From NCBI GenBank assembly GCA_002428285.1, contig DIVO01000050.1:9554-50654 (forward strand): 41,101 nucleotides of DNA, written 5' to 3'. Positions 5,029-18,837 of this stretch are shown here, one piece after another. The number at the start of each line of letters is the position of its first letter. The stretch's first letter is position 1. This DNA comes from Patescibacteria group bacterium UBA6130 (GTDB taxonomy: Bacteria; Patescibacteriota; Microgenomatia; UBA12405; UBA6130). The notes under the pieces were generated by a model, which did not search any database, was not told where the DNA came from, and saw only the letters and a program-made list of their open reading frames with translations. A program made the translations under genes and the position numbers.

Positions 5029-6831
5029 ATGAATCAGATTGAAGAGATCAAAGCTAAAGTAGATATTGTTGAGATAATTTCCCAAAGTGTAAATTTGAAA
5101 CCTGCCGGAAGAAATTTAAAAGGCTTGTGTCCTTTTCATAGTGAAAAAACTCCGTCATTTATGGTTTCTCCCGAATTGCAAATTTTTAAATGTTTTGGCT
5201 GCGGAAAATCGGGTGATGTGATTACTTTTCTTCAGGAATATGAGCGGATGGATTTTGGCGAGGCTTTGGAGCATTTAGCCCAAATTGCCGGAGTAAAACT
5301 TGAAGGTCAGAAATATTCACCAGACGAGTCAATCAAGAGAAAAATATATGAGATTAATGCTGCGGCAAAGTTTTTTTATCATTTTCTTTTAACCAAACAT
5401 GAGTCAGGCAAAAAAGCTTTAGAATACGCCCATTCGAGGGGTTTAGATCAAAAAATTATCGAAAAGTTTGGACTTGGCTTTTCTCCTCTAAAACCAGATG
5501 CTCTAGCCAATTATTTGATCAAAAAAAAGAATTACACCAAAGATGAGCTACTACAAACTGGCATATTTTTTACTTCGCAATATTCTGGCAGACAAGAGCT
5601 TTTGGACAGATTTTACGGAAGGCTTATTTTTCCCCTATTAGATCATAGAGAAAATATTGTTTCTTTTGCAGGCAGACTTATTCCTGGATATTTCAAAGAT
5701 GAGGATAAACGAGGGAAATATATTAATGGTCCTGATACTCCTGCTTATCACAAATCATATAATTTATATGGACTTTGGTTGACTAAAGAAGAGATAAGAA
5801 AAAAAGATAAGGCCGTATTGGTCGAGGGAGAGCTTGATTTGATTTCGAGCTGGAAGGCAGGAGTGAAAAATATTGTAGCCATTAAGGGAACAGCTTTAAC
5901 CCAAGAGCAGATTCAGTTAATAAAAAGATTTGCATCAAATTTAACCTTTTCTCTAGATGCCGATTTTGCTGGTGATCAGGCGGCTTTGAGGTGTGTGACA
6001 ATGGCTGACAAAGAGGGGTTGGATATGACAGCAGTTGTTTTGCCCAAAGGGGTCAAAGATCCTGACGACTTGGCCAGACTAGACCCAAAAAAATTAATAA
6101 AGGTGGTTGAAAAAGCTATACCTATTTGGGATTTTGTAATCAATAATGCTGTTCAGAGAAATGGGACCGATACCCCTCAGGGAAAAAAGAATGTCCTGAG
6201 GACGGTTTTGCCCATACTAACCCAAATTGATAATCAAGTAGTCAAAGAAGATTATTTAAAAAAACTATCTCAAACTCTTAACACAAGTTCTCAGGCAGTA
6301 ATGTCTGAGGCTCAAAAAACGATTGTATCTGCACCAAAAAAAGCCAAGGCAAATATTTTGAGTGAACCTCAAGAACCACAAGACAAACAAGACATATTGG
6401 AGGAGTATGTTTTGTCTTTGATTATGCTTAGCGGGAAACCTCAAAATTATCTTGAAAATCTTGAATTTGATAATTTTTTGGTTGATAGAATATATAAGGA
6501 ACTGAAAAAGTATTTGAAAAAGAACAAAAAATTTTCGTCATCTGCGTTTTTATCTTTTTTGTCTGAGGAGCTTAAGCCCAAGCTGGAGAAGATGTTCTTT
6601 GTTTGGGGAGATGATGAAGGCACAAACCTAGATAGGGAATTGAAAAAAATTATTACAGAACTGGAAAGGGTGAAATTAAAAAAGAAACTCAATTTATTGT
6701 CTGCCCAGATATCAGAGTCAGAAGAATCGGGAAAGGATATTAAAAAAAACAAAAACAACAAATCTTTGGAAAAACTCCAGGCAGAGTTTTCCGATCTTGC
6801 CGATCAGCTTTCAAGATTGGACGATAATTAA
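5029..6831 (+). CDS. dnaG: DNA primase
   Basis: CHC2 zinc finger CPFHSEKTPSFMVSP...FKCFGCGKSGDVITF and TOPRIM EGELDLIS...DAD. Followed by rpoD, the classical dnaG-rpoD arrangement. Confidence 0.97.
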   Translation: MNQIEEIKAKVDIVEIISQSVNLKPAGRNLKGLCPFHSEKTPSFMVSPELQIFKCFGCGKSGDVITFLQEYERMDFGEALEHLAQIAGVKLEGQKYSPDESIKRKIYEINAAAKFFYHFLLTKHESGKKALEYAHSRGLDQKIIEKFGLGFSPLKPDALANYLIKKKNYTKDELLQTGIFFTSQYSGRQELLDRFYGRLIFPLLDHRENIVSFAGRLIPGYFKDEDKRGKYINGPDTPAYHKSYNLYGLWLTKEEIRKKDKAVLVEGELDLISSWKAGVKNIVAIKGTALTQEQIQLIKRFASNLTFSLDADFAGDQAALRCVTMADKEGLDMTAVVLPKGVKDPDDLARLDPKKLIKVVEKAIPIWDFVINNAVQRNGTDTPQGKKNVLRTVLPILTQIDNQVVKEDYLKKLSQTLNTSSQAVMSEAQKTIVSAPKKAKANILSEPQEPQDKQDILEEYVLSLIMLSGKPQNYLENLEFDNFLVDRIYKELKKYLKKNKKFSSSAFLSFLSEELKPKLEKMFFVWGDDEGTNLDRELKKIITELERVKLKKKLNLLSAQISESEESGKDIKKNKNNKSLEKLQAEFSDLADQLSRLDDN

Positions 6832-6909
6832 AAAAAGAAAGCAATTATCCATATAAATTGCCAGAAAGGATGTTGATTTAAGTTCAATTTGGTGATATTA
6901 TATTTAAAT

Positions 6910-8001
6910 ATGCCCACCCCAGCTATGGAATTTGCCAAAAACAGAAAGTCATTGTTAGCCTTGGCCAAAAAGCAGGGCTTCTTGACTCAGGATGTTATAT
7001 TGGAAAAAATTGTTTCTCCTCATAAATATATTGAAGAATTAGATAAGTTTTATAACGATTTGTTTGAAAAGGGTATTGATGTATTCGAAGGCATAGATGT
7101 TGAGGATGTTAGAAGCGAAGAAGCAGTTTTAGCGGGAGGAAAAATTCCTGCGTTGTCATTGCTTGCCACTTCCACCTCCACCGATCCTGTAAGAATGTAT
7201 TTAAGAGAAATTGGAAAAGTTCCTTTGCTTTCGGGAGAGGAAGAAGTTACTCTTGCTCAAGAGATTGAGAAGGGTTCTGAAAGAGCTAGAGCAAAACTAA
7301 TTGAGTCGAATTTGAGATTGGTTGTTTCTATTGCCAAAAAATATATTGGCAGAGGTTTGACCTTTTTGGATTTAATCCAAGAAGGAAATCAGGGTTTGAT
7401 GAGAGCTGTAGAAAAATTTGATTGGCGAAGAGGTTTTAAATTTTCTACTTATGCCACTTGGTGGATCAGACAAGCCATTACAAGAGCCATTGCAGATCAG
7501 GCAAGAACTATCAGAATCCCCGTGCATATGGTGGAAACCATGAATAGAGTGTTTAAGACTGTTAGACAGTTGGCGCAGGAAAAAGGCAAGGAGCCGAGTG
7601 TGGCGGAGCTTGCAAAAGCCACAGATCTGTCTGAAGAAAAGATTAATGAAATTTTCCGGATTTCCCAAGACACTACTTCTTTGGCTGCTCCTGTAGGCGA
7701 AGAGCAGGATTCTTTTTTGGGAGATTTTATTGAAGATGTCACTTCTCCTTCCCCCTATGAGGAAACTTCAAAAGAGCTTCTTAAGGAGTCCATCACTGAT
7801 GTATTGACAAGTTTGGATGAAAGAGAAGCTAAGGTTTTGTCCTTGAGGTTTGGCTTGGATGGCGAGCCTCCAAAAACATTGGAAGATGTTGGCAAGATTT
7901 TCAATGTCACAAGAGAAAGAATTAGACAAATAGAAGCCAAGGCTTTAAGAAAACTTAGACACCCTTCGAGAAGAAAAAAACTCCAGGATTATTTAGAGTA
8001 A
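6910..8001 (+). CDS. rpoD: RNA polymerase primary sigma factor (sigma-70 family)
   Basis: Region 2 [54 protein letters not shown]. Region 4 [30 protein letters not shown]. The track ORF begins at 6889 with an alternative start, but ATG 6910 is preferred. Confidence 0.96.
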
Positions 8002-8991: not shown

Positions 8992-9345
8992 TCCTCGGTA
9001 GCTCAGTTGGTAGAGCGCCCGCCTGTCAAGTAGGCAGCCTAAGATAGTAATGTCTTAGTGAATAACTGGGTGAATTCAGGGAAGTCTAAATGGTGATAGT
9101 TTTAACCACATGATAATCCTGAGCCAATCCTTCGCTAAAGCTACGGATTGCAAGCAATCTGTTTGATGTTTGCTAATTCAATGCTTTATTGAAGGCAGGT
9201 GCAGAGACTAGGTGATTACATCTTTAAGCGCCCAGCCCCGTACACTATTTTTTAAATAGTGCGGGGATGATATAGTCCACGCCTTGACGAAAGTCTAGGA
9301 TAAAGTGTAAGCGGTTGGTCCCAGGTTCGAGTCCTGGCCGAGGAG
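8992..9345 (+). tRNA. tRNA-Asn (anticodon GUU) interrupted by a group I intron. Exons are 8992-9026 and 9308-9345.
   Basis: The joined exons give a 73-nt cloverleaf: TCCTCGG-TA-GCTC-AGTTGGTA-GAGC-G-CCCGC-CTGTTAA-GCGGT-TGGTC-CCAGG-TTCGAGT-CCTGG-CCGAGGA-G. The UCCUC.G acceptor plus G73 is close to E. coli tRNA-Asn as I recall it. There is one C27-U43 mismatch. Confidence 0.8.
9027..9307 (+). ncRNA. Group I self-splicing intron (IC3-like, tRNA anticodon-loop type), no internal ORF
   Basis: The core string AAGGCAGGTGCAGAGACTAGGTGATTAC (9192-9219) matches the Azoarcus tRNA intron core GAAGGUGUAGAGACUAGACGGCAC from memory, and CCTGAGCCAATCC matches GCCGAGCCAAGC. P7 candidate is GACTA 9206-9210 / TAGTC 9273-9277. 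P1 pairs exon CUGU 9023-9026 with GCAG 9034-9037, with a U-G wobble at the 5' splice site. G9307 immediately precedes the 3' exon. Peripheral hairpin at 9236-9266. Confidence 0.8.
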
Positions 9346-9465
9346 CAAGTTAGGCGTTACTCGACAATTTGAGTCTAGTAATGCAGCAAAAAGCGGAGTT
9401 GGTTCTGCTTTTACAATGTTCCTACCCTGAATTGGGCACAAAAAAAAGGAGCCCACTAAAATTCA

Positions 9466-9571: not shown

Positions 9572-9666
9572 CAGTATTATTGGATATCAAACAATATCAA
9601 TCATTTTATTTTTCATAGTGCTTTATAAATATCAGGCAATAAAGTATAATTAAACACAATTGATAT

Positions 9667-9858
9667 ATGGCTAAGATTGAAGAACTTTTGACACTGAAAC
9701 AAGCTGCTCAAATACTCAAAGTTAATGAGCAAACTCTCCGACGTTGGGACATAGAAGGCCGATTAAAGGCTGTTAGAATCGGTTCAAGACGTGGTGTTGG
9801 AGACCGACGTTATAGACCTGAAGATATTAAAGATTATCTAAACAGGCAAAAGAAATAA
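9667..9858 (+). CDS. Small helix-turn-helix DNA-binding protein (excisionase/MerR-superfamily type)
   Basis: LLTLKQAAQILKVNEQTLRRWDIEGRLKAVRIG....RYRPEDI fits the excisionase-family HTH pattern. It lies 17 nt upstream of hsdR. Confidence 0.7.
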   Translation: MAKIEELLTLKQAAQILKVNEQTLRRWDIEGRLKAVRIGSRRGVGDRRYRPEDIKDYLNRQKK

Positions 9859-9875
9859 TAGGAAATAAAATAAAT

Positions 9876-12098
9876 ATGACAGATATAAATAATGCCTCAA
9901 AAGAGGCAGACTCAAGGATTATTGTTGACCGATTGCTTCGAGAAGCAGGTTGGAACATTGAAGATAAAAATCAGGTCACTACAGAAGAAGCAACTCAAGA
10001 CGGCAGGGCCGATTATTTACTTTTAGACAGTCGAAGTCGTCCACTAGCCGTTGTCGAAACAAAAAGGTTCAGCAAAGACCCGTACACCGCCAAAGAACAA
10101 GCGGAAACCTATGCTAAAACGCTCCAAGCCCCGTTTATATTTCTTTCCAATGGTGAGGATACCTATTTTTGGGATTATGAGAAAGCGGACGCAAGGCTGG
10201 TTGATTCATTTTTCTCTCGTTTTGATTTGGAAAGAATTTCTACTTTAAGAAAGTATCAAAAGCCTCTCTCAACAATTCCTATTTCAGAGAAATTCTTTTT
10301 TAAGGGAAAAGAAATTACTGTCAGACCCTATCAAAAAGAGGCTTTGCAAACCATAGATAAAGCGTTAGAGGAAAACAAACGTCGTTTATTGGTTGAGATG
10401 GCAACAGGAACAGGTAAAACACTAGTTGCCGCCATGATGATTAAAAGATTATTTCAGGCAGGATTAGTGGAAAGAGTTTTATTTTTGGTTGACAGGATTG
10501 AACTTGCTAACCAAGCCAAAGAAACCTTTGACGACTATCTTTCTGAATATCCCTCAATTGTTTTATATGGTGGAAAGAGGAGTAAAGAAGGACAAATTGT
10601 TATCGGCACACTTCCTACAATTCAATTCCAGATTGACTCATTTACCAGTGGCTATTTTGATTTGGTAGTGACAGATGAATGTCATCGCTCAATTTATAGT
10701 ATTTATCGTTCCTTGCTTCTCCACTTTGACGCTATTCATATTGGTTTAACTGCCACCCCCAGCAATTTAATTGACAGAAACACATATGAGTTTTTTGGCT
10801 GTTGGAATCCATTAAGTAGAAAGGGAGAGCCAACATATATTTATGGAATAAGGCAAGGCATTAATGATGGGTATCTTGCTCCTTACAAGGTTTACCATGC
10901 TAGGTCAAAGATTTCTTTAGAGGGCATCAATTGGCAGGGAGAAGATTACGAACCGCAGGATTTGGAAAGAACCATTTCTGTTGAAGATAGAAACAAATTG
11001 TTTGTTCAGGAATTTAAGGAAAATGAAGAAAAAAGAGATGGCGACCATCCAAGAAAAACCATTGTTTTTGCCATTACTAAAAGACACGCTTCCCAACTAA
11101 CTAGATTTTTCAATGAAATGTATCCTGAATACAAAGGTAAATATGCCGAGATTATTACCACTGATACTTTTGACCCGCAAAGAGCTATTAAACGCTTTAA
11201 AAAGGAATCTTTGCCAGTTATAGCGGTTTCTGTGGCTATGCTTGATACGGGATTTGACTATCCGGCAGTTGAAAACCTGATGATGTGTCGGCCTACCCGT
11301 TCACCTATCTTTTATCAGCAAATGAGGGGTCGAGGTTCTCGTCTTTGCCCTGAAGTGGGTAAAAATGAATATCTTATTTATGACTTTGTTGGCAATGCAG
11401 AATACTTTAATGATGAAGGCTATAACCCCTTTGAACAGAAGAAAACAGCTATCAGAATGCCAGTAGAAGAAGTCGAAAAAGAGGAGGTTGTTGAGGAACA
11501 AATACCAGAACATATAATTAGGCAGTTTGTCACCATTCCCCTAGGTCAAGCTCACGATGAATGGGTGGAGAGAAAATATATCGAATTTGGACCAGACGGA
11601 GAAAAAGTTGATGCCAGAGAATATAAAGATAAATTTGCCGAAGAAGTAAAGAAGCTAGCTGATACCAACGAAATTATTATTAAACTCAAACAGCTACAAG
11701 ATGTTACTGATGAGGAAGTACAAGAACTGGGCGAACTTCTCAACCACCCCGAATTCTTTTTTAACGAAAACAATTTAAGACAAGCCTATGACCAACCAAC
11801 AGGCAACTTGGTTGATTTTGTTAAATCAGCTCTCGGAATGCACAAGTTCCCGACCAAAGAAGACAGAGTGAGTCAAGCCTTTGACGCCTGGATAATTCAA
11901 AAGAACTTTGCTCCTGAACAAGTCAGAATTTTAAGAATGCTCAAGAATCAATTCTTAGCAGGGAGTAAAGCAGATATTCAAGATTTCAGCCGACCCCCCA
12001 TCTCACAATATGGTGGTTTGCAATATGCCGTAAAAGTATTCGGTGAAGATGGCTTAAAGCAAGTGGTTACCGATTTACAGCAAGGAGTATTTATATGA
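9876..12098 (+). CDS. hsdR: Type I restriction enzyme, R subunit (EcoEI/type IB-like short form)
   Basis: N-terminal PD-(D/E)xK (GRADYLLLD...LAVVETKR). SF2 helicase motifs MATGTGKT, DECHR, GLTATP and QMRGRGSR. A C-terminal helical domain resembles the EcoEI R C-terminal domain. It overlaps the hsdM start by 4 nt. Confidence 0.93.
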   Translation: MTDINNASKEADSRIIVDRLLREAGWNIEDKNQVTTEEATQDGRADYLLLDSRSRPLAVVETKRFSKDPYTAKEQAETYAKTLQAPFIFLSNGEDTYFWDYEKADARLVDSFFSRFDLERISTLRKYQKPLSTIPISEKFFFKGKEITVRPYQKEALQTIDKALEENKRRLLVEMATGTGKTLVAAMMIKRLFQAGLVERVLFLVDRIELANQAKETFDDYLSEYPSIVLYGGKRSKEGQIVIGTLPTIQFQIDSFTSGYFDLVVTDECHRSIYSIYRSLLLHFDAIHIGLTATPSNLIDRNTYEFFGCWNPLSRKGEPTYIYGIRQGINDGYLAPYKVYHARSKISLEGINWQGEDYEPQDLERTISVEDRNKLFVQEFKENEEKRDGDHPRKTIVFAITKRHASQLTRFFNEMYPEYKGKYAEIITTDTFDPQRAIKRFKKESLPVIAVSVAMLDTGFDYPAVENLMMCRPTRSPIFYQQMRGRGSRLCPEVGKNEYLIYDFVGNAEYFNDEGYNPFEQKKTAIRMPVEEVEKEEVVEEQIPEHIIRQFVTIPLGQAHDEWVERKYIEFGPDGEKVDAREYKDKFAEEVKKLADTNEIIIKLKQLQDVTDEEVQELGELLNHPEFFFNENNLRQAYDQPTGNLVDFVKSALGMHKFPTKEDRVSQAFDAWIIQKNFAPEQVRILRMLKNQFLAGSKADIQDFSRPPISQYGGLQYAVKVFGEDGLKQVVTDLQQGVFI

Positions 12099-13609
12099 CC
12101 AAGATTCCAAAACAAGAACTCCAGTCAACCATAGACCAGATTTGCAATAAATTGTGGGCAGCGGGTTTGACTAACCCTATTACTTACATCGAACAAATAT
12201 CTTATTTCTTTTTTCTTAAGATGCTTGAGGAATGGGATAACCAGAAAGCTAAAGAAGCGAAACTTATCGGACACACTAACGGGAATAAGTCCATGTTTGA
12301 GGGAGAAAATGAAAAATATCGCTGGAGCCAATGGACACATATTGCCGACAATACCCAGATGTATAAATTCGTTCGTGATGAAGTGTTTCCTTTTATGGCA
12401 AACCTTCCAGGAACCAATGAGGCAGTTAGGCGGTTCTTTGATGATGCCAGATTTCAAATTCCTGATGGAGTAGTCCTTCGGGATGTTGTCGATAAACTTC
12501 GAGACGTTTCCTTTATCGAGCTCGATGCTGATGTTAAAGGTGATTTATACGAATATCTTCTAAACCAACTCACAACTTCAGGCAAAGCAGGACAATTTAG
12601 AACTCCAAGGCATATTATTCGAACCATTGTTCAACTAACCAATCCTCAAATTGGTGAAACAATATTAGACCCCGCCAGCGGTACAGGTGGTTTTCTCTTA
12701 GGAGCTTACGAATGGATAAAACTTTGCAATTCAGACCCTAAAAATATTGAGGAATTAGTTAATGGTGGTGGACAGATATCCAAAAAAGGCCCAGGAGACA
12801 AGCTCAATCCTTCACAGTGGCAATTCCTACAAAGTGGAACGTTTTACGGCTTTGACGTTGACGCTGCAATGGTCAAGATTGCCACTATGAACCTTATTCT
12901 TCATGGTTTGGATAAATCGCAAGTAATAAGGCGTGATGCAGTGGCTGGTAGTCCTGATGAGTGGGAAGACCGAGAATATGACGTGATTATCTCCAATCCT
13001 CCATTTGCGGGAACTATTAATAAGGAAAGGGTTAGAAAATATTTACCTGTTCAATCAACTGATACTACAACCTTGTTTTTAGGATTGATGATTGATGCCC
13101 TAAGACCAGGCGGAAGAGCAGGGGTAATTGTCAACGAAGGAATCCTTTTTAACCGAAACAAGGCCTCACAGGAAGTAAGACGTTATCTCATGGATAAAAG
13201 AAATCTTGTAGCAGTTGTTTCTTTGCCTGGTGGTATTTTTCAACCTTATTCTGGAGTTAAAACAAGTGTTTTGTTCTTTAACAATGATGGCAAGAAAACA
13301 GAAAAGGTATGGTTTTATGAAGTTCAACAAGATGGGTTTGGACTTGCAACTCAAAGAAAACCAACTCCAGATAAAAATGACCTTCCAGACTTGATTGAGA
13401 AGTGGTCAACCAAACCAGAATCTGCAAACAGTTGGTTTGCAACCAAAGCACAGATAGAAGAGAACAACTTTATTATTTCCTCATCTGCATATAAGCCGTT
13501 AACGAAGGATGACTTTGTCTACCGAGACCCAAAAGAGATTTTCAAAGAAATTCAGGAATTAAATAAACAATCCCAAGAGCAATTAAAGAAAATTGAAAAA
13601 TTTATATGA
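12095..13609 (+). CDS. hsdM: Type I restriction-modification system, N6-adenine DNA methyltransferase subunit
   Basis: Motif I DPASGTGGFL, motif IV ISNPPFAG, and an HsdM N-terminal helical domain. Confidence 0.95.
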   Translation: MTKIPKQELQSTIDQICNKLWAAGLTNPITYIEQISYFFFLKMLEEWDNQKAKEAKLIGHTNGNKSMFEGENEKYRWSQWTHIADNTQMYKFVRDEVFPFMANLPGTNEAVRRFFDDARFQIPDGVVLRDVVDKLRDVSFIELDADVKGDLYEYLLNQLTTSGKAGQFRTPRHIIRTIVQLTNPQIGETILDPASGTGGFLLGAYEWIKLCNSDPKNIEELVNGGGQISKKGPGDKLNPSQWQFLQSGTFYGFDVDAAMVKIATMNLILHGLDKSQVIRRDAVAGSPDEWEDREYDVIISNPPFAGTINKERVRKYLPVQSTDTTTLFLGLMIDALRPGGRAGVIVNEGILFNRNKASQEVRRYLMDKRNLVAVVSLPGGIFQPYSGVKTSVLFFNNDGKKTEKVWFYEVQQDGFGLATQRKPTPDKNDLPDLIEKWSTKPESANSWFATKAQIEENNFIISSSAYKPLTKDDFVYRDPKEIFKEIQELNKQSQEQLKKIEKFI

Positions 13610-14310
13610 ACTATAAATTTATTGCAACCCAGTTTGGAGAGGCAGTTAAATACGATACAACCGTTAACGAAGTAAGCAGAACTTTCAATGCCCTCACCAA
13701 CCTCAAAAGGAAAGATTATGTCAATGATGCAATTACTTCAGCTCGTTCAGGATTGATTTATTCATGGGTGATGACTATTGGCGACTCAAACCTTGAAGAA
13801 TCAGACAAATGTGAACTTGTAAGGCAGGCAATAAATACAATAGTGATAAACGACAAGGTAAAAGAAAAGCTGTTGGGATTACTGGGGACATCGAGATGTT
13901 TACCTAAAACGAATTCGTCTAGTTATGTGAACTCAAGCAGGCTAGATGAAATTAAAGCGTTGAATTGTAAAAATTTTGATTTATCTAGGTTGATAAAACT
14001 TTGTGACGAGTTAAATATGTCTTTCGAAAATAAGTGCTATTTTTCTGTTGCAATACTGGTTCGGTCATTATTAGACCATGTTCCGCCAATCTTTGGAGTA
14101 GGCTCATTTACGGAACTGGCCAATAACTATCAAGGGACAAGGAGTTTCAAGGCACAAATGCAGCATCTTGAATTGTCATCTCGGAAAATAGCCGACTCAT
14201 ATTTACATACACAAATTAGAAATAAGGAATCGTTGCCCAACTCAACGCAAGTGGATTTTTCAAACGACCTAGATGTGTTGTTAGGCGAGGTGTACCGATT
14301 ATTAAAATAA
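13606..14310 (+). CDS. Uncharacterised 234-aa protein inserted between hsdM and hsdS
   Basis: ATGA overlap with the hsdM stop and a 1-nt gap to the hsdS start. No catalytic motif recognised. The C-terminal half is helical (..LVRSLLDHVPPIFG...SSRKIADSYLHTQIR..). Confidence 0.7.
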   Translation: MNYKFIATQFGEAVKYDTTVNEVSRTFNALTNLKRKDYVNDAITSARSGLIYSWVMTIGDSNLEESDKCELVRQAINTIVINDKVKEKLLGLLGTSRCLPKTNSSSYVNSSRLDEIKALNCKNFDLSRLIKLCDELNMSFENKCYFSVAILVRSLLDHVPPIFGVGSFTELANNYQGTRSFKAQMQHLELSSRKIADSYLHTQIRNKESLPNSTQVDFSNDLDVLLGEVYRLLK

Positions 14311-14311
14311 T

Positions 14312-15478
14312 ATGAATAACTGGCAAGCTAAGAAACTTGGAGATATAACAGTAATAAATGGTGGAGGAACACCTCCTACAAGCCATGCTGAATATTTTAA
14401 TGGCGATGTGCCTTGGTTTACTCCTTCCGAGATTACCTCTGGAACAGTTTCCGTTTTAACTAATAGTCAAAGGCAAATTACAGAAGAAGCAACGAAGTTC
14501 TCTAAGGTAGCCGAGCAAGGAACGGTTTTATTGTCTAGTAGGGCAACTATAGGAAATATTGGAATAGTAGCTAATCGTTCAACTTACAATCAAGGAATTA
14601 AAGGAATAACCCCAAAAGAAGATTTAAACTCATGGTTTCTTGCTTACTGGCTATTAGCAAACAAAAAAGGATTAGAAAAATCATCATTTGGAACAACATT
14701 TAAAGAATTAAGCACAACAGCTCTAAAAAAATTTGATATTACAATTCCGCCTATTTCTGTTCAACAAAAAATTGTTGAGCGTTTAGACTCAATCAGAAAA
14801 TTGCAGGAATTAAACCAAAAAGAAATTGAAAAGGCAGAAGAATTATTTGACTCATTATTGAGTGTTAAATTTTACCCCAATAAAGCATATAAAAGGTTAA
14901 ATTTTGAAGATGTCGTTACTTTTAAGAGGGGGCCTTTTGGTGGTTCACTAAAGAAAGAAATATTTGTCTCAGACGGTTTTAGAGTTTATGAGCAAAGAAA
15001 TGCGATATATGATGATTTTACTAACTGTAGGTATTTTATTACTGAAGAGAAATATAAAGAGATGATTGGTTTTGCTGTTAAAACTGGGGATTTAATAGTT
15101 AGTTGCTCGGGGACAATTGGAAAGGTTGCCTTGGTACCGAATAAAGTTTCTCCAGGAATCATAAATCAAGCCTTACTAAAAATTACTCCAAAAATAGATA
15201 TTGTCCTCAGCGAATACCTCAAATATTTAATTCAGAGTAGAGATATGCAGATTAAAATGTTTGGAAATGCCCGTGGTTCTTCTATTAAAAATATCGTTTC
15301 GATTAAAGAGATAAAAAAACTTGTTTTATCTCTACCATCTATTAAAGAACAACAGCAAATTGTTAAGGAGTTAGATTTTGTAGCAAATATACATGAGACT
15401 AAAATTCTATTAAAGAAATCAATATCGCAAATCTATGAAAATAGCCTCATTAAGGCAATGAAAGGAGAAATGGTTTAA
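14312..15478 (+). CDS. hsdS: Type I restriction-modification system, specificity subunit
   Basis: 388 aa with two target-recognition halves. Each begins with a ..G..PP../..GPFGG.. type segment and ends in a conserved helical spacer (PPISVQQKIVERLDSI... and LPSIKEQQQIVKELDF...). Its position follows hsdM. Confidence 0.9.
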   Translation: MNNWQAKKLGDITVINGGGTPPTSHAEYFNGDVPWFTPSEITSGTVSVLTNSQRQITEEATKFSKVAEQGTVLLSSRATIGNIGIVANRSTYNQGIKGITPKEDLNSWFLAYWLLANKKGLEKSSFGTTFKELSTTALKKFDITIPPISVQQKIVERLDSIRKLQELNQKEIEKAEELFDSLLSVKFYPNKAYKRLNFEDVVTFKRGPFGGSLKKEIFVSDGFRVYEQRNAIYDDFTNCRYFITEEKYKEMIGFAVKTGDLIVSCSGTIGKVALVPNKVSPGIINQALLKITPKIDIVLSEYLKYLIQSRDMQIKMFGNARGSSIKNIVSIKEIKKLVLSLPSIKEQQQIVKELDFVANIHETKILLKKSISQIYENSLIKAMKGEMV

Positions 15479-15480
15479 TA

Positions 15481-15807
15481 ATGAAAATTATTTATAAAAC
15501 AAAATTCTATTGCATGTTTTGTAAAAAAGAACTCCCGTTAGATGTATATGGTAGTGATGTTAGTGCGAGTGAAGATAAGGAATTTGATAAAGAGGTAAAA
15601 GAGTGGGGTGAGCATTACCATTGGATAGATGCACACAGGAGATGTGCTATATGTGGCGAATTGGTTACCTCTGATGACTTGGAGTTGTTAGTAAACGATG
15701 GGAAAACTAACATTCACGAAGAATATCTCAACCAAACCTATGAAAAAAGTCATAAAGGACATTTGTTAACCGTTCATGGAAAATGCATTAAAGAAAACAA
15801 CTTATGA
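15481..15807 (+). CDS. Uncharacterised small zinc-ribbon-like protein (108 aa)
   Basis: Two CxxC pairs (CMFC, CAIC) plus His-rich HYHWIDAH and HGKC. It starts 2 nt after the hsdS stop and overlaps the next ORF by 4 nt. Confidence 0.65.
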   Translation: MKIIYKTKFYCMFCKKELPLDVYGSDVSASEDKEFDKEVKEWGEHYHWIDAHRRCAICGELVTSDDLELLVNDGKTNIHEEYLNQTYEKSHKGHLLTVHGKCIKENNL

Positions 15808-17108
15808 AGGTTGAAGATAAACCAAAATATGTTAAGGAAGCAAGGGAGTTGCAAGACTCAATAAATGTCGATTCTCTAATTGATGACCCCAACGAACTTT
15901 CTACATTGAGGAAAATTAGCCGCTTGATAGCTATTTTTACCAATTTTTCTTATAACGATGGCCAAGAACTGAAACGTCTATTATTAGAATTCCAGAAGTG
16001 GTCAAGACGTAGCACGAGTGTAGGTACTATTCGAAACAGAGCTGTTGACATGCTCCAATTCATTAGCCAAAAAATTGAAGAGATGGATATTTATGTAATA
16101 GATGAACCAATAAAAAAGAACCAGGATAGAATTGTCAGTAAACTAAAGAATGAGAAATATTGGGTTCAACAGAATCTGGAAGGAAAAGACTTACATATTA
16201 TCGTTGGAGAAAGAAGTGCTAAACAAGGAGAGCACATACATGTTATTAGCGACTCAGATACGGGTGAAATTAGGTTCGACTCCAAAGACCAGCAACCAAG
16301 TGAACTATTAGAACGAGTGGTTAGTTTAGTAACTAAGAGTGGAACTACTATCGGGGTAACTCAAAAAGGGATTAAAACAACAACTGAATTTATCGAGACA
16401 AATATAGAAGGTAATCCCAATAAAGATATACCGATTCTTTATGCAACAGGAGTGCGTCGAAGTGGTGGGTCAAAAGGCCATTTCGAGTATGTCATGATTA
16501 AAAATATTGGAAAGGAAATTGCCCTAGATATTCATTGGGGAATCAGAGGATTTGCTTATGAATGGAGACCGACGGAAGAACCTTTTGAGTTGGAGGCTAG
16601 CAAGGAGCGAGAGGTTACCTATCCAATTTCGGAAGAAAAGGTATTTAAGGAGGACATTCCTGAGCTAAACGTGATAATGGAGTATAAAGATGTTAACGGC
16701 AATGCTTATTTCACTCGAAGAGAGCTTAAACAAATTAGAGTATCATCTGGGGCATTCTTTAAACTTAAAGCTGATACATTTCATCCTCCGTCCATATTAG
16801 TAGATGATGGCCTTGAAATAGTTTCTGAGCCAATTCGAACTGGGGATAGAGTCGAGGCCACCTTTAAGATTGGAGTTCAAGGTCAGACTAAGCTGGTAAA
16901 AATAGGGTTGAGTGGCAACCTAATAGCTGTTCTAGACCTACAGACAGGTGATTTATTAAGACAGGCAATACTTGAGCTTGCCCACAGGAAAATACGAAAG
17001 ATGGTTAAATTAGATAGCCTTGCGGATTATAGTTTTACCACCCACGACCTACCAGAAGGTCATCCAGTAGGATTTGGTGCTTACGTTCTCCTAAGAGATT
17101 CCATATAG
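15804..17108 (+). CDS. Uncharacterised 434-aa protein, last gene of the hsd transcription unit
   Basis: Long clean ORF with a helical N-terminal third and a beta-rich remainder. No P-loop, nuclease or methylase motif recognised. Confidence 0.7.
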   Translation: MKVEDKPKYVKEARELQDSINVDSLIDDPNELSTLRKISRLIAIFTNFSYNDGQELKRLLLEFQKWSRRSTSVGTIRNRAVDMLQFISQKIEEMDIYVIDEPIKKNQDRIVSKLKNEKYWVQQNLEGKDLHIIVGERSAKQGEHIHVISDSDTGEIRFDSKDQQPSELLERVVSLVTKSGTTIGVTQKGIKTTTEFIETNIEGNPNKDIPILYATGVRRSGGSKGHFEYVMIKNIGKEIALDIHWGIRGFAYEWRPTEEPFELEASKEREVTYPISEEKVFKEDIPELNVIMEYKDVNGNAYFTRRELKQIRVSSGAFFKLKADTFHPPSILVDDGLEIVSEPIRTGDRVEATFKIGVQGQTKLVKIGLSGNLIAVLDLQTGDLLRQAILELAHRKIRKMVKLDSLADYSFTTHDLPEGHPVGFGAYVLLRDSI

Positions 17109-17283
17109 TTGCGTTTGATAGTGCACTTACCAAAGCACCCCAGCATCTTTTTGATGGTTTGGCCTTACCTGTTTCGATATAAGAAATGTATTCCCGAGTA
17201 TACCCACTCAGATTAGCTAGTTGTTGTTGACTAATGTGCTTTTTGCCCCTTGTTCTTAAGGCATACAGTTCGTTTGGTTTCAT
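17035..17283 (-). CDS. XRE-family helix-turn-helix transcriptional regulator
   Basis: ISQQQLANLSGYTREYISYIETGKAKPS is a canonical Cro/C1 HTH. A GGAGGTG RBS lies 7 nt upstream of the ATG. The 3' end overlaps the convergent 434-aa ORF by 74 nt. Confidence 0.85.
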   Translation of the reverse strand: MKPNELYALRTRGKKHISQQQLANLSGYTREYISYIETGKAKPSKRCWGALVSALSNATIWNLLGERKHQILLDDLLVGRGW

Positions 17284-17913: not shown

Positions 17914-18837
17914 ATGCCGATTTATAAACAGACCGATAGCAAGCTCATTCCTATTAAAGAAAAGAAGGTAGGTCTTGAAAAAACCCTACAAAATCTAGTT
18001 GAAGCCAACTTGAGTGATGTTTTTGCTTTGAATTTTATTGCTGCGGAATTTCCTTTAAACAATCTTCGGATTGATACGCTGGCTTTTGATGAAGAAGCTA
18101 AGGCTTTTGTGGTTATTGAATACAAGCGAGATAGAAACTTTACAGTAATAGACCAGGGCTATGCTTATCTTGCCCTGTTGCTAAACAACAAGGCAGATTT
18201 TGTCCTTGAATATAATGAGAAGACTAAAAAAAATTTGAGAAAAGACGATATTGATTGGTCACAGTCTAAGGTGATGTTTGTTGCTCAGTCTTTCACAAAA
18301 TACCAGCAGGAAGCTATCGGATTTCAGGATTTGCCAATTGAACTTTGGGAAGTAAAGAAATATGATGAGCGTTTAGTTTCTTTTAACCAGGTAAGAGCGT
18401 CTGAAAAAAGCGAGAGCATAAAAACTATTACTAAGAATAAAGATATTCAGCAGGTGTCTAGGGAAATTAAACAGTATTCAGTTAAAGACCATATCAAGTC
18501 TAATTGGAGCAAGTCTAGGGAGCTATTTGATGAGTTTTCCCAGCGGGTTTTGGAGCTTGACACTCGTTTTGAGACAAAACCAGTAAAATCCTATATAGGT
18601 TTCCGTATAGGAAATAAAAATGTAATAAATGTTAAACCTAGAAGTTCTAAAGTGGTAATCGAATTTTTAAGAACTCAACCTCAGGATTTGAAAGACCCAG
18701 AAAAGAGAGTAACTTATTTTAAAAATAGCTTCAAGTATTACAACCAGCACGTAAGTTTATTCAGTGTTGAAAATGAAGATGATATTGACTATGGTATATC
18801 TCTTGTAAAACAGGTTTATAGGAAATTTACCGAGTAA
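17914..18837 (+). CDS. PD-(D/E)xK (NucS/DUF91-like) nuclease-fold protein with a DUF5655-like C-terminal domain
   Basis: N-terminal RIDTLAFDEEAKAFVVIEYKRDRN...VIDQGYAYLALL fits the D...ExK restriction-endonuclease-like core. The C-terminal ..SYIGFRIGNKNVINVKPRSSKVVIEF.. resembles DUF5655 (family name from memory). Confidence 0.65.
   Translation: MPIYKQTDSKLIPIKEKKVGLEKTLQNLVEANLSDVFALNFIAAEFPLNNLRIDTLAFDEEAKAFVVIEYKRDRNFTVIDQGYAYLALLLNNKADFVLEYNEKTKKNLRKDDIDWSQSKVMFVAQSFTKYQQEAIGFQDLPIELWEVKKYDERLVSFNQVRASEKSESIKTITKNKDIQQVSREIKQYSVKDHIKSNWSKSRELFDEFSQRVLELDTRFETKPVKSYIGFRIGNKNVINVKPRSSKVVIEFLRTQPQDLKDPEKRVTYFKNSFKYYNQHVSLFSVENEDDIDYGISLVKQVYRKFTE

What the first reader, a model, noticed from the sequence alone, without database searches (positions are those of the whole stretch)
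9667..17283. Type I R-M operon with three uncharacterised, translationally coupled passenger genes (candidate undescribed defence module)
hsdR, hsdM and hsdS are unambiguous by motif. The same head-to-tail unit also carries three ORFs I cannot assign to any family.
- A 234-aa ORF sits between hsdM and hsdS. It has an ATGA overlap with the hsdM stop and a 1-nt gap to hsdS.
- A 108-aa double-CxxC protein follows hsdS with a 2-nt gap.
- A 434-aa protein follows that with an ATGA overlap.

Junctions from hsdR through the 434-aa gene range from a 4-nt overlap to a 2-nt gap, and the HTH gene ends 17 nt before hsdR. That spacing implies co-transcription and coupled translation with the R-M subunits. 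Known cargo of hsd operons (PrrC, RloC, Abi-type genes) acts as a second-line defence. None of their hallmarks, such as an ABC/P-loop Walker A, is visible here. The locus sits directly downstream of a tRNA gene in an island and ends with a convergent XRE regulator.
Basis: partly seen in the sequence, partly recalled or inferred. Interest (0 to 1): 0.85.

Follow-up and report, generated by a model that had tools for sequence, protein, structure and literature searches.

The report
Restriction operon with swappable passenger genes
A bacterial DNA-restriction operon carries three unannotated extra genes that are independent, swappable cassettes of likely anti-virus function, not one new system, and one of them belongs to a family that follows many kinds of restriction systems.

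Summary
The gene layout is real. HTH-hsdR-hsdM-orf234-hsdS-orf108-orf434 lie head to tail, with junctions from a 4-nt overlap to a 2-nt gap. None of the three passengers matches Pfam, NCBIfam, PADLOC or PHROGs.

They are not one module. Related Patescibacteria-like loci share the hsd backbone (75-79% nt) but swap the cargo exactly at gene boundaries.

- **orf234:** it has a variable N-terminal domain and a highly conserved 130-aa all-helical C-terminal domain. That domain defines at least 1,834 unannotated 50%-identity clusters across many phyla. Full-length relatives lie inside type I R-M operons, after type III R-M, or beside SIR2 or ApeA genes. The only named hit is a marginal one to a HEPN domain.
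- **orf434:** it has an N-terminal helical domain and C-terminal beta-sandwiches. Paralogues keep both and insert TIR, Mrr or CBASS-type nuclease domains between them, or carry the N-terminal domain with a PLD-like domain. In 11 of 16 informative loci the gene directly follows an R-M system of one of several types.
- **orf108:** it is a rare protein with invariant Cys and His residues, also found beside Shedu-type nucleases and DUF3800.

Embedding of defence genes in type I R-M operons is already published, so this is a new variant of a known kind. Function is inferred, not shown.

The parts
8992..9347 (+). tRNA gene interrupted in the anticodon loop by a group I intron (about 9027-9307). It lies 320 nt upstream of the HTH gene.
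   Evidence: Rfam RF00028 at 9017-9299, 71.6 bits against a gathering score of 50. ARAGORN finds a 74-nt tRNA-Asn(GUU) or tRNA-Thr(UGU) after the intron is removed in silico. The intact gene is missed.
9622..9650 (+). Promoter-like site (TTTATA-17-TATAAT), 17 nt before the HTH start codon.
   Evidence: Consensus scan, 10 of 12 matches. This is a pattern match only; the region has fewer such sites than shuffled sequence.
9667..9858 (+). Small HTH_17/MerR-type DNA-binding protein (63 aa), the likely operon regulator.
   Evidence: Pfam HTH_17 6e-12 and PADLOC mad1 1.5e-9, but NCBIfam MAD1 is far below its cut-off. Homologous small HTH genes head the R-M operons in L001, L004, L009, L014, L126 and L133.
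9876..12098 (+). hsdR, the type I restriction subunit (740 aa), EcoAI/EcoEI-like.
   Evidence: ResIII 3e-39, EcoEI_R_C 5e-30, HSDR_N 3e-9, PADLOC REase_I 4e-90. NCBIfam EcoAI scores 322 bits, below its cut-off of 550. It is in one 90%-identity cluster with the HsdR encoded on the contigs of L001 and L004.
12095..13609 (+). hsdM, the type I methyltransferase subunit (504 aa).
   Evidence: N6_Mtase 5e-55, HsdM_N 7.5e-19, PADLOC MTase_I 9e-148. ATGA overlap with hsdR.
13606..14310 (+). orf234, the passenger in the hsdM-hsdS slot. It is all-helical with two domains. The C-terminal domain (aa 104-234, nt 13915-14307) defines a large unannotated family.
   Evidence: No curated family. 643 homologues. 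The C-terminal domain profile finds 1,834 50%-identity clusters at E<=1e-3. Invariant residues include R153, H158, D197, H201 and R205. AlphaFold2 mean pLDDT 86. Foldseek finds nothing at E<0.9 in PDB or BFVD. The best PDB profile hit is the HEPN domain of 'Dandelion' at E=0.018.
14312..15478 (+). hsdS, the type I specificity subunit (388 aa).
   Evidence: Methylase_S 2e-45 with two matched stretches, PADLOC Specificity_I 3e-59. Only parts of the gene (its 5' third, and in L001 its 3' end) align with related loci at DNA level; the rest does not.
15481..15807 (+). orf108, a small probable zinc-binding protein. It lies 2 nt after hsdS and has an ATGA overlap with orf434.
   Evidence: Only 7 homologues. 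Invariant C11, C14, H45, H47, H52, C55, C58, H79, H99 and C102. Homologues lie next to SduA_C genes (L001, L135, L137) and DUF3800 genes (L007, twice). PDB profile search gives only non-significant Spt4/RpoE'' zinc-ribbon hits.
15804..17108 (+). orf434, a modular passenger. It has an N-terminal helical domain (aa 1-105), a poorly modelled middle (aa 106-205) and two beta-sandwiches plus helices (aa 208-434).
   Evidence: No curated family. AlphaFold2 mean pLDDT 82, with pLDDT below 50 at 104-112 and 163-205. Paralogues keep the N- and C-terminal domains and carry TIR, Mrr or CBASS-type endonuclease domains in the middle, or carry the N-terminal domain plus a PLD-like domain, or AAA_14/DUF4143 plus the C-terminal domain. 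11 of 16 informative loci lie directly downstream of an R-M system.
17035..17283 (-). Convergent XRE-type HTH gene (82 aa) that overlaps the end of orf434 by 74 nt.
   Evidence: Pfam HTH_3 3e-8. A homologous convergent XRE gene (E=1.8e-11) follows the orf434 orthologue in L097, which sits in a different type I operon.

Best explanation
**What it is**

The locus is an intact type I restriction-modification operon (HTH regulator, hsdR, hsdM, hsdS; EcoAI/EcoEI-like) from a Patescibacteria-like genome. It serves as a landing pad and shared expression unit for independently mobile cargo cassettes. Cargo occupies two slots: between hsdM and hsdS, and after hsdS. Related genomes exchange the cargo at exact gene boundaries.

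**orf234** (inferred): a stand-alone abortive-infection-type effector. It has a variable N-terminal sensing domain and a very conserved C-terminal catalytic domain. That domain carries invariant Arg and His residues and may be an RNase of HEPN-like chemistry.

**orf434** (inferred): one member of a modular family. A constant N-terminal helical domain and constant C-terminal beta-sandwich domains frame a replaceable effector cassette. In paralogues the cassette is TIR, Mrr or a CBASS-type endonuclease. In orf434 it is a small unknown domain with conserved His, Asp and Glu residues. The family acts as a second line of defence placed behind R-M systems of several types.

**orf108** (inferred): a small zinc-binding partner or regulator that travels with different downstream effectors (orf434, Shedu-type nuclease, DUF3800).

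**Shown:** the gene layout, the homologies, the domain swaps, the neighbourhood linkage and the cassette exchange.

**Inferred:** co-transcription, anti-phage function, catalytic activities and any interaction between proteins.
For: **Layout and R-M identity**
-.

**Cassette exchange**
- The window and L004 align from the 3' end of the HTH gene to the hsdM stop codon (9829-13618). They align again from the hsdS start (14311) and again from the orf434 start (15794).
- The window and L001 align through orf234 and orf108 and stop at 15800. L001 then has an SduA_C gene and a GmrSD gene instead of orf434.
- L014 has two genes in the hsdM-hsdS slot and an SMC/AAA_15 gene plus GmrSD after hsdS.
- HsdR is in one 90%-identity cluster across contigs that carry different cargo.

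**orf434 modularity**
- BLAST coordinates show shared N- and C-terminal domains with a replaced middle.
- The middles are TIR_2 (2.7e-11), Mrr_cat (6.7e-6; PADLOC LmuA 4.8e-7) and the PADLOC CBASS 'Effector Endonuclease' (1.5e-24). A shorter paralogue has the N-terminal domain plus PDC-S05/PLD (8.5e-21).

**orf434 linkage to R-M**
- The upstream systems include two type I families, type III-like Mod/Res systems, and a PLD-helicase with an Eco57I/MmeI-like methyltransferase. All are upstream on the same strand.

**orf234 contexts**
- Type I hsdM-hsdS slot (window, L001, L014), after a type III R-M (L141), beside SIR2_2 (L146), beside ApeA-HEPN (L145), and near MADS genes.

**orf108 partners**
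-.

**Other**
- All three families are essentially absent from phage collections.
- The concept has precedent: bioRxiv 10.1101/2024.01.29.577857 and PMC12255303.
Against: - No passenger has a demonstrated activity.
- orf234 and orf434 have no significant structural neighbour.
- The HEPN lead for orf234 rests on one marginal profile hit (E=0.018, N-terminal half only). In that alignment the invariant R153-x4-H158 of orf234 does not face Arg or His in the HEPN protein. hhalign against DUF3644 and ApeA HEPN proteins gives nothing.
- Most members of the orf234 C-terminal domain family are not near detectable hsd genes (78 of 80 loci). Some sit beside housekeeping genes such as the alanyl-tRNA synthetase gene in Tolypothrix. 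Their upstream neighbours are heterogeneous.
- orf434 itself lacks any recognisable effector, and its middle region is modelled poorly.
- R-M detection in the loci used single-sequence phmmer and a crude gene caller. The 11 of 16 figure is therefore approximate and has no formal background rate.
Confidence: 0.6

Rival explanations
1. One integrated defence module. The three passengers work together and with the Hsd subunits, for example as guards that sense inhibition of the R-M complex and then kill the cell, as PrrC does with EcoprrI.
For: - Junctions are very tight, with ATGA overlaps.
- The orf434 family is strongly linked to R-M operons.
- orf234 sits in the hsdM-hsdS slot in three related operons (window, L001, L014).
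- The PrrC precedent is established knowledge.
Against: - The three genes assort independently. L001 has orf234 and orf108 but no orf434. L004 has orf434 but neither orf234 nor orf108.
- orf434 relatives follow R-M systems of unrelated architectures, so a specific contact with Hsd proteins is unlikely. In L110 an orf434 orthologue lies directly behind an HTH gene with no detectable R-M system.
- The orf234 C-terminal domain family is mostly unlinked to hsd genes.
- orf108 occurs with Shedu-type genes and no detectable hsd genes on a 7.3-kb contig (L135).
Confidence: 0.15
2. Selfish or addiction cargo, not immunity. The passengers are toxin-antitoxin-like or otherwise selfish cassettes that insert at gene boundaries of a widely transferred operon and persist by hitch-hiking.
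For: - Replacement is exact at gene boundaries.
- The orf234 C-terminal domain family is scattered across phyla, beside IS elements, integrases and plasmid genes.
- A tightly coupled, variable upstream partner gene is frequent: 31 of 80 loci have a gap under 30 nt.
- The orf108/orf434 pair has an ATGA overlap, which resembles a two-gene toxin-antitoxin layout.
Against: - orf434 paralogues carry TIR and nuclease cassettes typical of immune effectors.
- Neighbours are mainly R-M, GmrSD, Shedu-type, SIR2 and ApeA genes.
- No Pfam or NCBIfam toxin or antitoxin family matches any of the three passengers.
- Toxin-antitoxin and abortive-infection roles overlap, so this rival is only partly distinct from the best explanation.
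Confidence: 0.15
3. R-M accessory or regulatory proteins. The passengers modulate the Hsd enzyme itself, for example through restriction alleviation, assembly, control of specificity switching, or regulation by the zinc protein.
For: - The genes lie inside or immediately after the hsd genes and are probably co-translated with them.
- orf108 gives weak, non-significant hits to zinc-ribbon proteins of the Spt4/RpoE'' kind.
Against: - Operons with the same backbone (HsdR in one 90%-identity cluster) replace these genes with unrelated ones. A 231-aa gene replaces orf234 in the hsdM-hsdS slot, and a 221-aa gene precedes orf434.
- All three families also occur away from type I systems.
Confidence: 0.07

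Closest known systems
Defence genes embedded in type I R-M operons ('guilt-by-embedding', Payne et al., bioRxiv 10.1101/2024.01.29.577857; DarTG2 inside an E. coli type I R-M system headed by the RptR repressor, PMC12255303)
   Same: - Extra genes in the same orientation lie inside or at the end of an hsd operon.
- A small regulator gene heads the operon.
- The cargo differs between otherwise similar operons.
- GmrSD-like genes are frequent co-cargo, as in L001, L004, L014 and L097.
   Different: - None of the three passengers matches any PADLOC-DB v2 model, including the PDC candidate families.
- The host lineage appears to be Patescibacteria-like rather than Proteobacteria.
- The regulator is HTH_17/MerR-like. 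The RptR paper describes RptR as a novel small helical repressor with no close structural homologues; its sequence was not compared here.
PrrC / RloC anticodon nucleases in hsd operons
   Same: A passenger gene lies between or beside hsd genes and may act as a second line of defence. orf234 has invariant Arg and His residues, as metal-independent RNases do.
   Different: - The passengers have no ABC-ATPase or Walker A motif.
- They have no PADLOC, Pfam or NCBIfam match.
- The orf234 C-terminal domain family is mostly not embedded in hsd operons. The Payne et al. preprint describes PrrC as almost exclusively embedded in type I R-M systems.
Modular defence proteins with swappable effector domains (for example Lamassu LmuA, CBASS effectors, Thoeris ThsB-type TIR proteins)
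   Same: The orf434 family keeps constant domains and swaps TIR, Mrr and CBASS-type endonuclease domains. The effector parts of its paralogues hit ThsB, PDC-S66, LmuA and CBASS 'Effector Endonuclease' models.
   Different: - The constant N-terminal and C-terminal domains hit no known model.
- The effector lies in the middle of the protein.
- No LmuB/LmuC, cyclase or ThsA partner gene is present in the window.
- orf434 itself has no recognisable effector.
Shedu (SduA, DUF4263 nuclease)
   Same: orf108 homologues lie directly upstream of SduA_C genes in L001 and L135, and two genes downstream of one in L137.
   Different: The window has no SduA gene. From my own knowledge, Shedu is described as a single-gene system without a small zinc-protein partner. 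The orf108 family has only 7 known members.
HEPN-domain RNases (for example the DUF3644 protein HEC-08 and the 'Dandelion' HEPN domain, PDB 9wx2)
   Same: The orf234 C-terminal domain is all-helical, has an invariant R-x4-H, and gives a marginal profile hit to the Dandelion HEPN domain (E=0.018).
   Different: - No Pfam or NCBIfam HEPN model matches.
- Foldseek finds no match, and hhalign against DUF3644 and ApeA gives nothing.
- The R-x4-H lies at the end of the second long helix of the domain (H145-162). From my own knowledge, canonical HEPN domains carry it at the start of the last core helix.

Membership tests
Type I restriction-modification system | HsdR with an N-terminal nuclease region and an SF2 helicase/translocase | tested here: met
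   HSDR_N 2.7e-9, ResIII 3.3e-39, Helicase_C 1.6e-9, PADLOC REase_I 4e-90. A DECH box is visible in the translation.
Type I restriction-modification system | HsdM N6-adenine methyltransferase with an HsdM_N domain, and an HsdS with two target-recognition domains | tested here: met
   N6_Mtase 5e-55, HsdM_N 7.5e-19, Methylase_S 2e-45 in two stretches. The NPPF and DPASGTGGF motifs are visible in the translation.
EcoAI/EcoEI (type IB) family of HsdR | EcoEI_R_C C-terminal domain and a score above the NCBIfam EcoAI equivalog cut-off | tested here: inconclusive
   EcoEI_R_C is met at 5e-30. NF046051 scores 322 bits against a cut-off of 550. The protein is related to the family but is not an equivalog.
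MADS (methylation-associated defence system) | mad1-mad8 gene set with scores above the NCBIfam cut-offs | tested here: not met
   PADLOC mad1, mad2 and mad5 models hit the HTH protein, HsdM and HsdS. The NCBIfam MAD1, MAD2 and MAD5 scores are 15, 121 and 56 bits against cut-offs of 80, 720 and 400. No mad3, mad4, mad6, mad7 or mad8 match is found in the locus.
PrrC / RloC anticodon nucleases | ABC-type ATPase (Walker A) N-terminal domain plus a C-terminal nuclease domain | tested here: not met
   No Walker A motif in orf234, orf108 or orf434. No PADLOC, Pfam or NCBIfam hit.
HEPN superfamily (orf234 C-terminal domain) | Conserved R-x4-6-H motif | tested here: met
   R153-S-L-L-D-H158 is invariant in 55 sequences. 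The motif alone is short and not specific.
HEPN superfamily (orf234 C-terminal domain) | Significant sequence-profile or fold similarity to a known HEPN domain | tested here: inconclusive
   The best PDB profile hit is the 'Dandelion' HEPN domain at E=0.018, over the N-terminal half only. No Pfam or NCBIfam HEPN model matches. Foldseek's best PDB hit is E=0.93, to AbiA. BFVD gives nothing. hhalign against DUF3644 and ApeA gives probabilities below 1%.
TIR-domain defence proteins (Thoeris ThsB-like) | Presence of a TIR domain | tested here: not met
   orf434 has no TIR hit. Only paralogues such as P0184 have one (TIR_2 2.7e-11, residues 119-233).
Lamassu | LmuA effector together with an LmuB SMC-like ATPase (with or without LmuC) | tested here: not met
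   orf434 has no LmuA hit. Only the Mrr part of paralogues P0205 and P0204 hits LmuA (4.8e-7 and 1.4e-5). No SMC-like gene lies in the window locus.
PADLOC phage-defence candidates (PDC/HEC families from guilt-by-embedding) | Match to a PADLOC-DB v2.0.0 model | tested here: not met
   Zero families for orf234, orf108 and orf434 at E<=1.
'Embedded' defence cargo as defined by Payne et al. 2024 | Gene located between the genes of a known multi-gene system, on the same strand | tested here: met
   orf234 lies between hsdM and hsdS on the same strand. orf108 and orf434 are appended after hsdS rather than embedded, so the definition is met for orf234 only.

The most novel reading that the evidence does not exclude
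The orf434 family would be a new class of effector tethered to restriction-modification systems in Patescibacteria. Its constant N-terminal helical and C-terminal beta-sandwich domains would sense failure, inhibition or products of whichever R-M system lies upstream. They would then switch on a replaceable killing domain: TIR, Mrr, a CBASS-type nuclease, PLD, or the unknown small domain of orf434. orf108 would act as a zinc-binding co-factor shared with Shedu-type nucleases. In the same reading, the orf234 C-terminal domain would be a new RNase-like fold that defines a very large, entirely unannotated single-gene abortive-infection family.
Probability: 0.2. Interest if true: 0.8.

Novelty: new variant of a known kind. 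Interest (0 to 1): 0.55.

Why it matters
Patescibacteria largely lack CRISPR-Cas (my own knowledge of the literature) and have tiny genomes, so how they resist viruses is poorly known. If the inferences hold, three things follow.

- Their restriction operons act as exchange platforms for second-line defences.
- A family that follows restriction systems of several unrelated types could show how a cell backs up restriction when it fails.
- The orf234 C-terminal domain labels at least 1,834 protein clusters in many phyla that today have no annotation at all.

All three proteins are short and easy to clone, so the ideas are directly testable.

Tried and rejected
**Family scans**
- Pfam, NCBIfam, PADLOC and PHROGs scans of the three passengers gave nothing usable.

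**Structure and profile searches**
- PDB profile searches gave only marginal hits: the 'Dandelion' HEPN domain at E=0.018 for the orf234 C-terminal domain, a de novo helical bundle for orf434, and Spt4 zinc ribbons for orf108.
- Foldseek of both AlphaFold2 models against PDB, and of orf234 against BFVD, gave no hit at E<=0.001. For orf434 the hits were generic beta-sandwiches.
- hhalign of the orf234 C-terminal domain against DUF3644 and ApeA HEPN proteins gave no signal.
- hhalign of the orf434 family against the alternative slot genes of L004 and L097 gave probabilities below 7%, so a shared beta-sandwich is not established.

**The one deep profile search**
- It returned only close relatives among the 150 listed hits, so it gave the family size but no bridge to a known family.
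- A Pfam scan of 57 long family members showed almost no known N-terminal domains.

**Other tests**
- An adaptor-pair idea was tested: that the orf434 N-terminal domain also occurs in a neighbouring protein. An HMM of the N-terminal domain hit only orf434-family proteins in all loci.
- A classical tRNA-flanked integrative island was tested. There is no repeat of the tRNA 3' end in the window and no GC shift.
- Phage origin was tested. There is no tblastn match in GenBank phages. IMG/VR has none for orf434 or orf108 and 6 contigs for the orf234 C-terminal domain.
- MADS membership was rejected on the NCBIfam cut-offs.
- Literature searches for 'Dandelion' as a defence system found nothing relevant.

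Full report
**1.

The junction sequences were read directly.
- hsdR/hsdM, hsdM/orf234 and orf108/orf434 are ATGA overlaps.
- orf234/hsdS has a 1-nt gap and hsdS/orf108 a 2-nt gap.
- The HTH gene ends 17 nt before hsdR.
- A promoter-like site lies 17 nt before the HTH start. The + strand of the operon has only two weak terminator-like hairpins, one inside hsdR and one inside hsdM.

One transcription unit is therefore plausible, but it is inferred and not shown.

**2. The restriction system is ordinary and looks intact**

- HsdR has the HSDR_N, ResIII, Helicase_C and EcoEI_R_C domains.
- HsdM has HsdM_N and N6_Mtase.
- HsdS has two Methylase_S stretches.
- PADLOC calls all three type I components.
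- NCBIfam places HsdR nearest the EcoAI family but below the equivalog cut-off, at 322 against 550 bits.
- PADLOC MADS models also hit the HTH protein, HsdM and HsdS. The NCBIfam MADS scores are far below their cut-offs and the other mad genes are absent, so this is not MADS.

**3. The passengers are real genes without a family**

None of orf234, orf108 and orf434 has a usable hit in Pfam, NCBIfam, PADLOC or PHROGs. None has a Walker A motif. They have 643, 7 and 110 homologues respectively in the 5.8-billion-protein collection. AlphaFold2 models of orf234 and orf434 are confident, with mean pLDDT of 86 and 82.

**4. They are not one module: cargo is swapped at gene boundaries**

Related metagenomic loci share the backbone HTH-hsdR-hsdM-[slot]-hsdS-[cargo].
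- **L001:** has orf234 and an orf108 homologue, but an SduA_C (Shedu-type) gene and a GmrSD gene where the window has orf434.
- **L004:** has an unrelated 231-aa gene in the hsdM-hsdS slot. After hsdS it has an unrelated 221-aa gene, then an orf434 orthologue, a PDDEXK_1 gene and GmrSD.
- **L014:** has two genes in the hsdM-hsdS slot, one of them an orf234 homologue. After hsdS it has an SMC/AAA_15 gene and GmrSD.

DNA alignment shows 75-79% identity in the backbone, with breakpoints at gene boundaries.
- Window against L004: homology ends at 13618 (the hsdM stop), resumes at 14311 (the hsdS start) and resumes again at 15794 (the orf434 start).
- Window against L001: homology runs through orf234 and orf108 and ends at 15800.

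HsdR proteins of contigs with different cargo fall in one 90%-identity cluster. The operon thus has two slots in which cassettes are exchanged.

**5. orf234**

The model is all-helical with two domains joined by a disordered linker at residues 96-103.

The C-terminal 130 residues are strikingly conserved, at 50-65% identity across Cyanobacteria, Chloroflexota, Bacteroidota, Proteobacteria, Patescibacteria and others. The N-terminal parts differ. A profile of the C-terminal domain finds 1,834 clusters at 50% identity with E<=1e-3, and 1,141 with E<=1e-30. In all 150 listed proteins the domain is at the C-terminus, behind N-terminal regions of 45-355 residues. Those N-terminal regions almost never match Pfam.

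Invariant residues include R112, D125, E135, R153, H158, P160, S180, F181, S191, D197, H201, R205, E208 and Q215. R153-x4-H158 fits the HEPN motif pattern.

The only link to a named fold is a marginal profile hit to the HEPN domain of a PDB protein called Dandelion. It has E=0.018 and covers only the N-terminal half, and the Arg and His of orf234 do not face Arg or His in that alignment. Foldseek finds nothing below E=0.9 in PDB (top hit AbiA) or in BFVD. hhalign against two HEPN proteins found in the loci gives no signal. HEPN is therefore a lead, not a classification.

Full-length relatives (45-82% identity) have these contexts:
- inside type I operons (window, L001, L014);
- directly after a type III-like Mod/Res pair next to an integrase (L141);
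- beside a SIR2_2 gene (L146);
- at the same dnaG-rpoD-linked position as the window, but with an ApeA-HEPN gene and no hsd genes (L145).

For the wider C-terminal domain family, 78 of 80 GTDB loci show no hsd gene detectable by phmmer. Upstream neighbours are heterogeneous, and some are housekeeping genes. A minority of neighbours are MADS, MkoA or AriA-type defence genes. Plasmid copies lie among IS elements, a zeta toxin gene, or a DUF3644 gene and an AAA ATPase-helicase gene pair.

The family behaves like a widely transferred single-gene cassette. About half of the time it has a tightly coupled but variable upstream gene.

**6. orf434**

The model has three parts:
- a helical N-terminal domain (1-100), modelled with high confidence;
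- a poorly modelled middle (104-205);
- two beta-sandwiches and a helical tail (212-434), modelled with very high confidence.

Foldseek returns only generic beta-sandwich hits (ApaG-like, TRAP-beta, adaptin appendage) with E>=0.02.

The informative evidence is domain architecture.

| Paralogue | Shares with orf434 | Domain elsewhere in the protein |
|---|---|---|
| P0184 (501 aa) | residues 1-105 (63% identity) and 161-434 (44%) | TIR at 119-233 |
| P0205, P0204 | residues 1-102/107 and 173/183-434 | Mrr_cat / LmuA-type nuclease (P0205: 124-227) |
| P0192 | whole length, collinear | CBASS-effector-type endonuclease at 118-237 |
| P0225 (343 aa) | residues 1-129 only | PLD-like domain (PADLOC PDC-S05) |
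| P0215 | residues 198-434 only | AAA_14/DUF4143 ATPase (PADLOC PDC-S01) |

Within the 434-aa orthologues the middle carries a conserved pattern, GKDLH...GER...GEHxHxIsDs.TGEIR. Its activity is unknown.

Family members sit on the same strand directly behind R-M systems of several kinds:
- the EcoEI-like type I system (window, L004);
- a second type I family with a T1RH-like HsdR plus GmrSD (L097);
- a type III-like Mod/Res pair plus an ABC ATPase (L101), and a methyltransferase with a Res-type helicase (L133);
- a PLD-helicase plus an Eco57I/MmeI-like methyltransferase, with a 4-nt overlap (L121, L126);
- other Eco57I-like enzymes (L131, L105, L106).

Counting distinct loci with at least 3 kb of upstream sequence, 11 of 16 are R-M-linked by my sequence-based labelling. 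That labelling has limited sensitivity and no formal background rate.

Other points:
- The gene immediately upstream of orf434 is variable: 108, 221, 246 or 183 aa.
- The N-terminal domain occurs in no other protein of these loci.
- A homologous convergent XRE gene follows the orthologue in L097.

**7. orf108**

Only seven homologues exist. Ten residues are invariant: C11, C14, H45, H47, H52, C55, C58, H79, H99 and C102. That is enough for two zinc sites, which is an inference. The public gene call starts at M12 and would remove the invariant F9 and C11, so the longer ORF is the better call.

Its neighbours are:
- orf434 in the window;
- SduA_C genes in L001 and L135, and nearby in L137;
- DUF3800 genes in a duplicated cassette in L007.

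It therefore travels with different putative effectors. Whether it regulates them, partners with them or is merely adjacent cannot be told from sequence.

**8. Mechanism, with steps marked**

*Shown:*
- an intact type I operon;
- two cargo slots with exchange at exact gene boundaries;
- the domain modularity of the orf434 family, with immune-type effector domains;
- the linkage of that family to R-M systems;
- the size and conservation of the orf234 C-terminal domain family;
- the variable partners of orf108;
- near-absence of all three families from phage collections.

*Inferred:*
- The HTH_17 protein controls one transcript.
- The passengers give a second layer of defence that is expressed together with restriction.
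- orf234 is a sensor plus nuclease-type effector.
- orf434 is a sensor or scaffold carrying a small unknown effector.
- orf108 is a zinc-binding partner.

I put 0.6 on this independent-cargo reading, 0.15 on an integrated guard-type module, 0.15 on selfish or addiction cargo, and 0.07 on an R-M accessory role.

**9. Comparison with what is known**

Embedding of defence genes inside Hma, BREX, DISARM and type I R-M systems is described, and was used to predict 145 candidate systems (bioRxiv 10.1101/2024.01.29.577857). A type I system with embedded DarTG2 and an upstream small repressor has been characterised (PMC12255303). PrrC is the classic hsd-embedded guard (established knowledge).

The present locus follows that pattern. 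However, its three cargo families match none of the PADLOC v2 models, including the PDC candidates, and no Pfam or NCBIfam family. It is therefore a new variant of a known kind.

The most notable leads are the R-M-following modular orf434 family and the very large unannotated orf234 C-terminal domain family.

Noticed in passing
window 8992-9347 (+): A tRNA gene is interrupted in its anticodon loop by a group I intron (Rfam 9017-9299, 71.6 bits). ARAGORN does not see the gene. Removing 9027-9307 gives tRNA-Asn(GUU), and removing 9025-9305 gives tRNA-Thr(UGU). A P1-like pairing that puts a U.G pair at 9026 favours the Asn reading.
   Followed up: partly
window 15481-15513: The public gene call for orf108 (P0231, 97 aa) starts at M12. 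That start removes F9 and C11, which are invariant in all eight aligned sequences, so the 108-aa ORF is the better call.
   Followed up: yes
window 17035-17283 (-); L097 8325-8540 (-): The XRE-type gene overlaps the 3' end of orf434 by 74 nt in convergent orientation. A homologous convergent XRE gene (E=1.8e-11) follows the orf434 orthologue in L097, a different type I operon. This hints at an orf434+XRE unit.
   Followed up: partly
window 5029-8001; L145 2658-5566: L145 shows the same dnaG-rpoD synteny as the window, but different cargo follows it: a 193-aa gene, an orf234 homologue, a 428-aa gene and an ApeA-HEPN gene, with no hsd genes. The region downstream of rpoD seems to be a variable hotspot in these genomes.
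   Followed up: partly
L007 7600-9065 and 11866-13308: A three-gene cassette is tandemly duplicated: a 115-117-aa protein, a 110-aa orf108 homologue and a DUF3800 protein. It lies next to two N6_N4 methyltransferase genes and a PLDc_2 gene.
   Followed up: no
L001 85-294, L004 1488-1694, L009 519-713, L014 3339-3533, L126 242-436, L133 122-304, L110 6792-6998: A small HTH_17/MerR-like gene heads R-M operons of several different types in these loci. In L110 it sits directly in front of an orf434 orthologue with no detectable R-M system. It may be a general regulator next to R-M systems in this lineage.
   Followed up: partly
L014 7281-8705: The hsdM-hsdS slot of this related operon holds two genes: an unrelated 236-aa gene and the orf234 homologue. 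The slot can therefore accumulate cargo.
   Followed up: no
window 17914-18837 (+): A 307-aa protein with a C-terminal DUF5655 domain (3.9e-8) lies just downstream of the locus. Most other genes from 17.5 to 26 kb have no Pfam match.
   Followed up: no
L017-L078 subset (neighbours of orf234 C-terminal domain genes in GTDB genomes): Among 149 neighbouring proteins, several match the MADS components mad2, mad3, mad6 and mad8 (best 1.5e-56), MkoA and AriA. Some members of the family therefore sit beside other modification-based or abortive-infection systems.
   Followed up: no
L009 15943-17148 (-): The locus that holds the TIR-carrying orf434 paralogue also encodes a 401-aa protein with the orf234-type C-terminal domain. 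It also has a serine recombinase gene and a SocA_Panacea gene.
   Followed up: no
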